From Escherichia coli (GTDB lineage: Bacteria > Pseudomonadota > Gammaproteobacteria > Enterobacterales > Enterobacteriaceae), in assembly GCF_045037415.1 (NCBI RefSeq), contig NZ_CP173438.1: a DNA stretch of 64,000 nt; one strand, written 5' to 3'. The notes under the pieces were generated by a model that searched no databases, had not been told where the DNA came from, and was given only the letters and a program-made list of their open reading frames with translations. Of this stretch, positions 17,175 through 17,333 are shown piece by piece. Position numbers and translations under genes: made by a program. Every line of letters begins with the position of its first letter. Within the stretch, counting starts at the first letter, position 1.

Positions 17175-17333
17175 CTGTCTGCAGCCCCTATCCCCCGCCG
17201 CCTGGGCAATTCCCACATTCACCGCATGATGCGGAGGTAAAATTTTTTTCGTGATTTTTTTAGAATTTAATTGGTTAAATTGCAGTCAATCGGAGACACG
17301 ATCTCGCTCGCAATTTAACCAATTACAGGATGA

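What the first reader, a model, noticed from the sequence alone, without database searches (positions are those of the whole stretch)
17268..17328. Perfect 16-bp-arm inverted repeat immediately downstream of bioD
TAATTGGTTAAATTGC ... GCAATTTAACCAATTA (arms at about 17268-17284 and 17313-17328, 28-nt spacer) forms a long perfect stem just past the bioD stop. It is not followed by a U-run on the minus-strand transcript, so it is not a canonical intrinsic terminator, and it is flanked on the other side by T-rich runs. It could be an RNA-stabilising 3' structure for the bio transcript, a protein-binding palindrome, or a small structured RNA. A pair of DnaA boxes lies 100 bp away (17152-17174).
Basis: seen in the sequence. 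Interest (0 to 1): 0.3.

Follow-up and report, generated by a model that had tools for sequence, protein, structure and literature searches.

The report
Hairpin after bioD, next to DARS1
The inverted repeat is real and conserved across Escherichia, and is most likely an ordinary RNA stem-loop at the end of the biotin-operon message (a leaky stop or stabiliser), sitting beside the known DnaA-reactivating site DARS1.

Summary
The window is E. coli. On the minus strand the order is bioBFCD, a 578-bp spacer, then uvrB.

**Observation.** The repeat is real. Its arms are 17268-17283 and 17310-17325: 16 nt, perfect, 26-nt spacer. It starts 8 nt after the bioD stop codon. It cannot be chance (expectation about 0.001 per window).

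**How general it is.** The perfect 16-bp form is a minority allele, found in 601 of 5,424 complete E. coli genomes. In K-12 and 72% of genomes the third pair is a U·U mismatch. A 13-bp core (TTGGTTAAATTGC/GCAATTTAACCAA) is kept in all 13 Escherichia sequences compared, which cover E. coli strains and five other Escherichia species-level lineages. The core varies less than the loop and flanks (6/26 against 32/62 variable columns, p=0.018).

**What it is not.**
- Not single-copy-violating or mobile: one copy per genome, and not an insertion.
- Not in Rfam.
- Not a canonical terminator.

**What supports an RNA role, and what does not.** There are no compensatory double changes, only a few G·U-compatible ones. 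Related genera carry different hairpins at the same place.

**Known neighbour.** The nearby DnaA boxes are the core of DARS1, which overlaps promoter uvrBp3. A 70-bp DARS1 fragment that cannot reach the repeat works in vitro.

**Best reading (about 0.5).** It is a 3'-UTR stem-loop of the bio mRNA, acting as a leaky U-poor terminator and/or exonuclease barrier. No 3' end has been mapped there.

Low interest. One practical caveat: a published ΔDARS1 allele also deletes this hairpin.

The parts
17334..17336 (-). bioD stop codon (TAG), end of the last gene of bioBFCD
   Evidence: ORF 17334-18017 and its translation. RefSeq annotation of the 100%-identical strain SK1144.
17310..17325 (-). 5' arm of the hairpin on the bio-sense RNA (UAAUUGGUUAAAUUGC). 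The first three bases are the variable basal part; the next 13 are the conserved core.
17284..17309 (-). 26-nt apical region, holding a short inner helix (GAUCG/CGAUU) and a GATC site. Its first half (GAGCGAGATC) is also kept in Citrobacter.
17268..17283 (-). 3' arm of the hairpin on the bio-sense RNA (GCAAUUUAACCAAUUA). This is the most conserved segment: 2 of 13 core columns vary across Escherichia.
17236..17267 (-). A-rich tail after the stem (AAATTCTAAAAAAATCACGAAAAAAATTTTAC). There is no U-tract. The homologous stretch in Citrobacter ends in T9.
17152..17174 (.). Context, not part of the hairpin: head-to-head DnaA boxes forming the core of DARS1, overlapping promoter uvrBp3.
   Evidence: Sequence. 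PMC6015884. PMC6868365. Invariant in Escherichia, Citrobacter and Intestinirhabdus.

Best explanation
The repeat most likely acts as RNA.

**Proposed mechanism.**
- When bioBFCD is transcribed (minus strand), the two arms pair just after the bioD stop codon. They form a long, AU-rich stem: a 13-bp conserved core, plus up to 3 basal pairs, plus a short inner helix.
- I propose this stem-loop marks and protects the 3' end of the bio message.
- It pauses RNA polymerase and terminates a fraction of transcripts weakly. With the basal pairs open, the tail is UUAAAUUCU.
- For transcripts that read on towards DARS1/uvrB and end or are cut further downstream, it blocks 3'-to-5' exonucleases, so the bio mRNA is trimmed back to the stem.

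**Shown.** The structure, its position, its single-copy and locus-specific nature, and its conservation in Escherichia.

**Inferred.** That it is made as RNA in meaningful amounts, that 3' ends form at it, and that it affects stability or read-through.
For: - The stem lies on the sense strand 8 nt after the last stop codon of the operon.
- It dominates the predicted fold of the 116-nt 3' region: -24.6 kcal/mol, z = -3.8, and none of 200 shuffles folds as well.
- The 13-bp core is kept in all 13 Escherichia sequences compared and varies less than the loop and flanks: 6/26 against 32/62 variable columns, Fisher p = 0.018.
- Four stem positions show one-sided changes that stay paired as G·U on the bio-sense strand: A13G, A21G, C27U, C55U.
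- In 88 metagenome copies anchored on the right arm only, the left-arm core changed only by the apical C-to-U, which keeps a U·G pair.
- The stretch from the bioD stop to DARS1 is collinear in Citrobacter and Intestinirhabdus.
  - Intestinirhabdus has an unrelated GC-rich 13-bp hairpin at the same place (z = -4.5).
  - Salmonella arizonae and diarizonae, C. koseri, Buttiauxella and Serratia also have a hairpin right after bioD.
  - So a post-bioD hairpin recurs while its sequence does not.
- No canonical terminator lies between bioD and the DARS1 core.
- A long-read-based analysis places bioB-bioF-bioC-bioD-uvrB in one transcription-unit cluster. That fits a leaky structure rather than a strong stop.
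Against: - No pair shows a compensatory change on both sides, and no covariation measure exceeds the shuffles.
- Transitions compatible with pairing on the sense strand against the antisense strand are only 4:3 overall (3:1 in the core), so the strand is not settled.
- Some lineages carry plain mismatches: L004, L006 and L002 in the core, and the third basal pair in 12 of the 13 sequences compared.
- Two C. amalonaticus genomes have no significant hairpin at this position (z = -0.5 and -0.1).
- The curated Term-seq 3'-end tables of Adams et al. (LB and M63) list nothing for bioD or K-12 positions 8129xx-8130xx. The operon is weakly expressed and those lists are thresholded.
- The stem is only 4/16 G-C, has a 26-nt apical region and lacks a U-tract, so termination, if any, should be inefficient.
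Confidence: 0.5

Rival explanations
1. A quasi-palindrome with no function. The repeat arose and is kept uniform by intrastrand template switching, in which one arm serves as template for repair or replication of the other. Any hairpin is incidental.
For: - No compensatory covariation.
- The basal positions vary freely among A, T, C and G.
- The window lineage's T-to-A transversion, which makes the stem perfect, is the kind of change templated correction would produce. T is the state in the other Escherichia species.
- The close relative C. amalonaticus does without a hairpin here.
Against: - A 13-bp core persists across the Escherichia lineages compared, while the adjoining loop and flanks have diverged (p = 0.018).
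- Template switching needs a pre-existing repeat, so it does not explain why hairpins recur at this position in other genera with unrelated sequences.
- The imperfect K-12 allele is the majority and is stable (3,930 genomes), so correction is not efficient.
Confidence: 0.25
2. A DNA-level element: either a binding site for a dimeric or tetrameric protein (arm centres 42 bp apart, about four helical turns), or an AT-rich architectural or insulator element belonging to the DARS1/uvrBp3 control region.
For: - It lies 94 bp from the DARS1 DnaA boxes, in an AT-rich stretch with A-tracts.
- The arm sequences, not only the pairing, are conserved, and the right arm more than the left.
- DARS2 has a flanking regulatory region for IHF and Fis, whereas none is known for DARS1.
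- The published ΔDARS1 allele removes the repeat, so its contribution has never been separated.
Against: - A 70-bp DARS1 fragment carrying boxes I-III releases ADP from DnaA in vitro. That fragment cannot reach the repeat.
- The DARS1 core is invariant in Citrobacter and Intestinirhabdus, but the repeat is absent there.
- The arm has no other convincing copy in the window: one 3-mismatch hit.
- Its resemblance to the BirA operator half-site is only about 9/15, and the half-sites face the wrong way.
- No known factor motif was identified.
Confidence: 0.15
3. An independent small RNA or antisense RNA, or an RNase III processing site that separates the bio and uvrB messages.
For: - The + strand also folds well (z = -4.0).
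- A stem of 16 bp plus an inner helix approaches the length RNase III accepts (my own knowledge of RNase III substrates).
Against: - No Rfam family above noise (best E = 1.1-3.1, eukaryotic families).
- No promoter-like site within about 400 bp on either strand.
- No covariation.
- No sRNA or 3' end listed here in the Term-seq tables read.
Confidence: 0.07
4. A remnant of a mobile element (MITE, REP or ERIC-like, or transposon ends).
For: Terminal inverted repeats flanked by TA...TA could be read as a tiny Tc1/IS630-style MITE (sequence).
Against: - One place per genome in 5,424 E. coli genomes.
- 88 of 90 metagenome matches to the right arm are in this same bioD context. The other two lack a left arm.
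- No match in viral contigs.
- The bioD-to-DARS1 interval is collinear and the same length in Citrobacter and Intestinirhabdus, so there is no insertion or empty site.
Confidence: 0.03

Closest known systems
Protective 3'-end stem-loops of bacterial mRNAs (hairpins to which Rho-dependent or read-through transcripts are trimmed; REP-type stabilisers)
   Same: - A stable stem-loop immediately downstream of the last ORF, on the sense strand.
- No U-tract.
- Lineage-specific sequence, with recurrence of the structure at the same position in other genera.
   Different: - Single copy, not a REP family member.
- Very AU-rich (4/16 G-C), with a large 26-nt apical region.
- No mapped 3' end or half-life data.
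Intrinsic (Rho-independent) terminators, including those where an upstream A-tract pairs with the U-tract
   Same: - A hairpin just after an operon.
- With the three basal pairs open, the tail is UUAAAUUCU (UUAAAUUUU in E. whittamii-like lineages).
- The basal pairs can be read as an A-rich 5' flank pairing with the start of a degenerate U-tract.
   Different: - It fails the usual criteria: G+C-poor stem, long loop, and at most 4 U in the first 8 nt.
- The consensus scan does not call it.
- Reported co-transcription of bioBFCD with uvrB suggests read-through.
DARS1 / uvrBp3 control region (bioD-uvrB spacer)
   Same: - Same intergenic region, 94 bp away.
- Deleted together with DARS1 in a published ΔDARS1 allele.
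   Different: - Contains no DnaA box.
- Lies outside the 70-bp fragment sufficient for DnaA-ADP release.
- Absent from genera that keep the DARS1 core unchanged.
bioO, the BirA operator between bioA and bioB
   Same: - An AT-rich imperfect palindrome in the same operon.
- Shares the TTGGTT/AACCAA core.
   Different: - Only about 9/15 identity per half-site.
- The half-sites are everted relative to bioO.
- The half-site centres are 42 bp apart, whereas both bioO half-sites fit within its single 40-bp palindrome.

Membership tests
Canonical intrinsic terminator | G+C-rich stem of about 5-14 bp with a short (3-8 nt) loop | tested here: not met
   The stem is 4/16 G-C with 26 nt between the arms. 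The terminator scan does not list it.
Canonical intrinsic terminator | U-tract (at least 5 U in 8 nt) directly after the stem | tested here: not met
   The tail is AAAUUCUA after the 16-bp stem, or UUAAAUUC (4 U) after the 13-bp core.
Canonical intrinsic terminator | RNA 3' ends mapped in the tail | tested here: inconclusive
   The curated Term-seq tables of PMC7815308 have no entry for bioD or 8129xx-8130xx. Those lists are thresholded, and bio expression is low in the media used.
Protective 3'-UTR stem-loop | Stable hairpin on the sense strand just downstream of the last stop codon | tested here: met
   It starts 8 nt after the TAG. Predicted fold -24.6 kcal/mol, z = -3.8.
Protective 3'-UTR stem-loop | Transcript 3' ends at the base of the stem; the stem prolongs mRNA half-life | not testable with these tools
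   Needs 3'-end mapping under bio derepression and half-life measurements in arm mutants.
Structured non-coding RNA family | Match to a curated family, or compensatory covariation in the helix | tested here: not met
   Rfam gave only noise (E = 1.1-3.1). 0 of 16 pairs show changes on both sides, and no measure exceeds the shuffles.
Structured non-coding RNA family | Own promoter or discrete transcript | tested here: not met
   No promoter-like site between 16862 and 17500 on either strand.
MITE / REP / ERIC-type dispersed repeat | Multiple copies per genome | tested here: not met
   Median of 1 place per genome in 5,424 genomes. 88 of 90 metagenome hits are at this locus.
MITE / REP / ERIC-type dispersed repeat | Presence/absence polymorphism (an insertion relative to an empty site) | tested here: not met
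   The interval is collinear and equal in length in Citrobacter and Intestinirhabdus.
DARS1 (DnaA-reactivating sequence 1) | Carries DnaA boxes I-III and lies within the fragment sufficient for ADP release | tested here: not met
   The arms hold no DnaA-box-like 9-mer (sequence). The sufficient fragment is 70 bp, and the repeat is 94 bp from the box I/II pair.
BirA operator (bioO) | Two inward-facing TTGTAAACC-type half-sites within a 40-bp palindrome | tested here: not met
   About 9/15 identity, opposite half-site orientation, 42-bp centre spacing.

The most novel reading that the evidence does not exclude
The hairpin could be a functional boundary between the biotin operon and the replication-control site DARS1.
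- By pausing or partly stopping bio transcription, or by binding an unidentified protein, it would set how much transcription runs through the DnaA complexes at DARS1 and uvrBp3.
- That would couple biotin status to DnaA reactivation and uvrB expression.

A corollary: phenotypes assigned to ΔDARS1 alleles that also remove the hairpin and uvrBp3, such as the strong mouse-colonisation defect in PMC4585315, would be partly due to altered bio or uvrB expression.
Probability: 0.08. Interest if true: 0.55.

Novelty: new member of a known kind. Interest (0 to 1): 0.18.

Why it matters
In itself it matters little. It adds one more unannotated 3'-UTR stem-loop to a well-studied operon and shows no feature outside known kinds.

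Two practical points follow:
- The bioD-uvrB spacer has no canonical terminator before DARS1. Transcription from a derepressed bio operon may therefore run into the DnaA-DARS1 complex and uvrB, and this hairpin is the only candidate brake.
- A published ΔDARS1 deletion starts inside the left arm. It removes the hairpin, DARS1 and uvrBp3 together, so effects of the three elements have not been separated.

Tried and rejected
- **Rfam** at a permissive threshold: only chance hits to eukaryotic families.
- **Promoter/terminator scan:** nothing at the repeat.
- **Mobile-element idea:** rejected by copy number, a viral-contig scan (0 hits) and a collinear alignment with other genera.
- **Second BirA operator:** rejected on half-site identity and orientation.
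- **Other copies of the arm** in the window: one 3-mismatch hit only.
- **Covariation test:** no compensatory pairs. My first structure string was off by one column and was corrected.
- **Sense versus antisense wobble bias:** too few events to decide.
- **rut-like C>G region:** only a weak one at nt 31-108 after the stop, half of it inside the stem.
- **Transcript 3'-end evidence.**
  - Adams et al. tables: negative.
  - SMRT-Cappable-seq supplements: no bioD entry.
  - Supplements not held: Dar & Sorek 2018, the 3'-UTR valve paper, the multi-study 3'-seq comparison, the nanopore paper and the RNase III target paper.
  - Papers not held: Fujimitsu 2009, the PMC id I recalled for Thomason 2015, and Ju 2019.
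  - The cap on papers was then reached.
- **One literature search** was wasted on terms that were too general.

Full report
**Where we are.**
- The 581-bp interval 16756-17336 is 100% identical to E. coli strain SK1144 and is present in 5,424 of 5,426 complete E. coli genomes.
- RefSeq annotation of that strain, and of K-12, shows this minus-strand order: bioF, bioC, bioD (window 17334-18011), an unannotated 578-bp spacer, then uvrB (14734-16755).

**The observation.**
- The repeat finder returns arms 17268-17283 and 17310-17325: 16 nt, perfectly complementary, 26 nt apart.
- The bioD stop codon (TAG) is at 17336-17334, so on the bio-sense strand the stem begins 8 nt after the stop.
- What follows the stem on that strand is AAATTCTAAAAAAATCACGAAAAAAATTTT, so there is no U-run. 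On the + strand the two T7 runs lie before the stem, and after it there is no T-run either. It is not a canonical intrinsic terminator in either direction, and the consensus scan does not call it.
- Chance is excluded:
  - Only two perfect 16-nt inverted repeats with a spacer of 60 nt or less exist in the 64-kb window.
  - Block shuffles gave none.
  - The analytic expectation is about 0.0009.
- The bio-sense RNA folds into the 16-bp stem plus a short inner helix at -24.6 kcal/mol (z = -3.8). The opposite strand folds equally well. As DNA, the hairpin is about -15.6 kcal/mol.

**How general is the perfect stem?**
- It is a minority allele.
- K-12 has TATTTGG... in the left arm, which gives a U·U mismatch at the third pair.
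- Using the 58-nt K-12 hairpin as query, 3,930 of 5,424 genomes are identical. Another 893 differ at 1-2 positions. The remaining 601 differ at 3 positions, and this class includes the window allele.
- Thirteen Escherichia sequences were compared: seven E. coli (including the window and K-12), one further Escherichia species-level genome (L002), and five with the shorter stop-to-stem linker (E. albertii, E. whittamii and three other species-level representatives). They show the following:
  - The three basal pairs vary freely on the left side (A/T/C and A/G).
  - The third pair is a standard pair only in the window allele (1 of 13).
  - The 13-bp core TTGGTTAAATTGC/GCAATTTAACCAA is retained.
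- Variable columns by region:
  - core arms 6/26
  - loop 14/26
  - 5' linker 7/8
  - 3' flank 11/28
- Core against the rest gives Fisher p = 0.018.
- An unbiased sample was drawn from metagenomes, anchored only on the right arm.
  - 88 of 90 hits were in this same bioD context.
  - Only four left-arm alleles appeared.
  - Within the core these differ only by an apical C-to-U, which keeps a U·G pair.

**Is it an RNA structure under selection?**
- The evidence is suggestive but weak.
- None of the 16 pairs shows a change on both sides, and no covariation measure exceeds the shuffled controls.
- Four positions change on one side to G·U on the bio-sense strand. These would be A·C mismatches on the other strand.
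- Three other transitions go the opposite way, and two transversions break pairs.
- The strand therefore cannot be settled from substitutions.

**Comparison beyond Escherichia.**
- BioD-anchored loci were fetched from 80 species.
- In most genera (Enterobacter, Klebsiella, Kosakonia and others) the sequence just after the bioD stop shows no similarity to the E. coli spacer, and its GC-rich, coding-like character suggests another gene there. I did not check this with an ORF or annotation call.
- In Citrobacter koseri, C. amalonaticus, C. sedlakii and Intestinirhabdus, the stretch from the bioD stop to the DnaA boxes aligns collinearly with E. coli and has the same length. The repeat is therefore not an insertion.
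- In those genera part of the left arm and the start of the loop (AAATTGCGAGCaAGATC) are recognisable, but the right arm is not.
- Intestinirhabdus has an unrelated GC-rich 13-bp hairpin at the same place (z = -4.5).
- Others with a hairpin immediately after bioD:
  - C. koseri, with nested helices (z = -2.2)
  - Salmonella arizonae and diarizonae, with an 8-bp GC hairpin (z = -2.3 and -3.9)
  - Buttiauxella and Serratia
- Two C. amalonaticus genomes have none (z about 0).
- So a post-bioD hairpin is recurrent but not universal, and its sequence is lineage-specific. This is the pattern expected of operon-end RNA structures.

**What the neighbourhood is.**
- The 'pair of DnaA boxes' at 17152-17174 is the head-to-head box pair of DARS1, the DnaA-reactivating sequence. 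It coincides with promoter uvrBp3 (PMC6015884; PMC6868365).
- It is invariant in every genus aligned.
- A 70-bp DARS1 fragment with boxes I-III suffices for ADP release from DnaA in vitro. No regulatory flank is described for DARS1, unlike DARS2.
- The repeat lies 94 bp from the box pair, so it is outside that fragment. It is also absent from genera that keep the core. It is therefore not part of DARS1 as defined.
- The ΔDARS1 allele of PMC4585315 uses a homology arm ending ...GTAGCCATTCTGTATT. That arm maps to K-12 812924-812959, so it stops four bases into the left arm.
- The other homology arm maps next to the uvrB LexA box, at window 16841-16876.
- That deletion therefore removes the hairpin, DARS1 and uvrBp3 together.

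**Transcript evidence.**
- I could find none that places a 3' end at the hairpin.
- The curated Term-seq tables of Adams et al. (LB and M63) have no entry for bioD, or for K-12 8129xx-8130xx. The K-12 hairpin is at 812956-813013. Those lists are thresholded, and the operon is weakly expressed.
[quoted passage not shown] This suggests read-through.
- On the bio-sense strand, the only terminator-like sites in the spacer are the DnaA-box palindrome itself and a small hairpin with AGUUUUAUCU at 16941-16929.
- There is no strong rut-like region.

**Interpretation.**
- The best-supported reading (about 0.5) is an RNA stem-loop in the 3' UTR of the bio message.
- With the variable basal pairs open, the tail reads UUAAAUUCU (UUAAAUUUU in several other Escherichia). 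That makes it a degenerate, leaky terminator whose A-rich 5' flank pairs with the start of a poor U-tract.
- For transcripts that read on, the stem is the obvious barrier to 3'-to-5' trimming.
- Rivals:
  - a functionless quasi-palindrome kept uniform by template switching (0.25)
  - a DNA-level protein-binding or architectural element associated with DARS1/uvrBp3 (0.15)
  - an sRNA or RNase III site (0.07)
  - a mobile-element remnant (0.03, effectively refuted)
- A second BirA operator was considered and rejected.

**Verdict.**
- The element is an Escherichia-specific, single-copy, conserved hairpin at the end of bioBFCD.
- It looks like an ordinary, though unannotated, operon-end structure rather than anything new in kind.
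- Its main practical relevance is its position between a regulated operon and DARS1, and its co-deletion in a published ΔDARS1 allele.
- Interest is low (0.18).

Noticed in passing
window 16877-17279 (equivalent to K-12 812960 to just upstream of the uvrB LexA box): The published ΔDARS1::cat allele (PMC4585315) starts four bases into the left arm of the repeat and ends next to the uvrBp2 LexA box. It removes the hairpin, the DARS1 core and uvrBp3 together, so phenotypes assigned to DARS1 are confounded with bio 3'-UTR and uvrB promoter effects.
   Followed up: partly
window 20975-21012 (bioO operator between bioA and bioB): This strain has GGTTTACGAG where K-12 has GGTTTACAAG: a single A-to-G change in the bioB-proximal BirA half-site that breaks the operator's symmetry. 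The 60-nt stretch carrying the G allele is at least 99% identical in 1,932 of 5,401 complete E. coli genomes. Any effect on repression is unknown.
   Followed up: partly
window 16929-16941, minus strand: A terminator-like hairpin, CCGGTAAGGCCGG followed by AGTTTTATCT, lies between DARS1/uvrBp3 and uvrBp1-2. It is a candidate stop or attenuator for bio read-through and P3 transcripts.
   Followed up: no
window 17222-17262: A small hairpin, CCGCATGATGCGG (17222-17234), is followed on the + strand by AGGTAAAATTTTTTTCGTGATTTTTTT. This looks like a weak + strand terminator pointing towards bioD. No + strand promoter or gene is evident upstream.
   Followed up: no
window 17284-17300 (GAGCGAGATC, bio-sense): The first half of the hairpin's apical region, including a GATC Dam site, is the only part of the stretch between the bioD stop and the A/T runs that is also recognisable in Citrobacter (GCGAGCaAGATC). 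The reason for this deeper conservation is unknown.
   Followed up: no
window 26780-26830: A perfect 14-bp inverted repeat, CCCCAGTCACTTAC/GTAAGTGACTGGGG, sits within GTGAATCCCCAG...GGGGTGAGCG. From memory this looks like an ERIC/IRU-type intergenic repeat.
   Followed up: no
window 55041-55078: This is the only other perfect 16-bp inverted repeat in the window (TAAAAATTTATGGGCC, 6-nt loop). A- and T-runs are built into the stem, which gives it the look of a bidirectional intrinsic terminator.
   Followed up: no
L127 (metagenome contig OKSB01005606.1) 300-640: In this contig the sequence follows E. coli through the hairpin and AAATTCTAA. It then switches to DNA with no match in any of the 5,426 complete E. 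coli genomes. This is either an assembly chimera or an insertion in the A-rich tail.
   Followed up: partly
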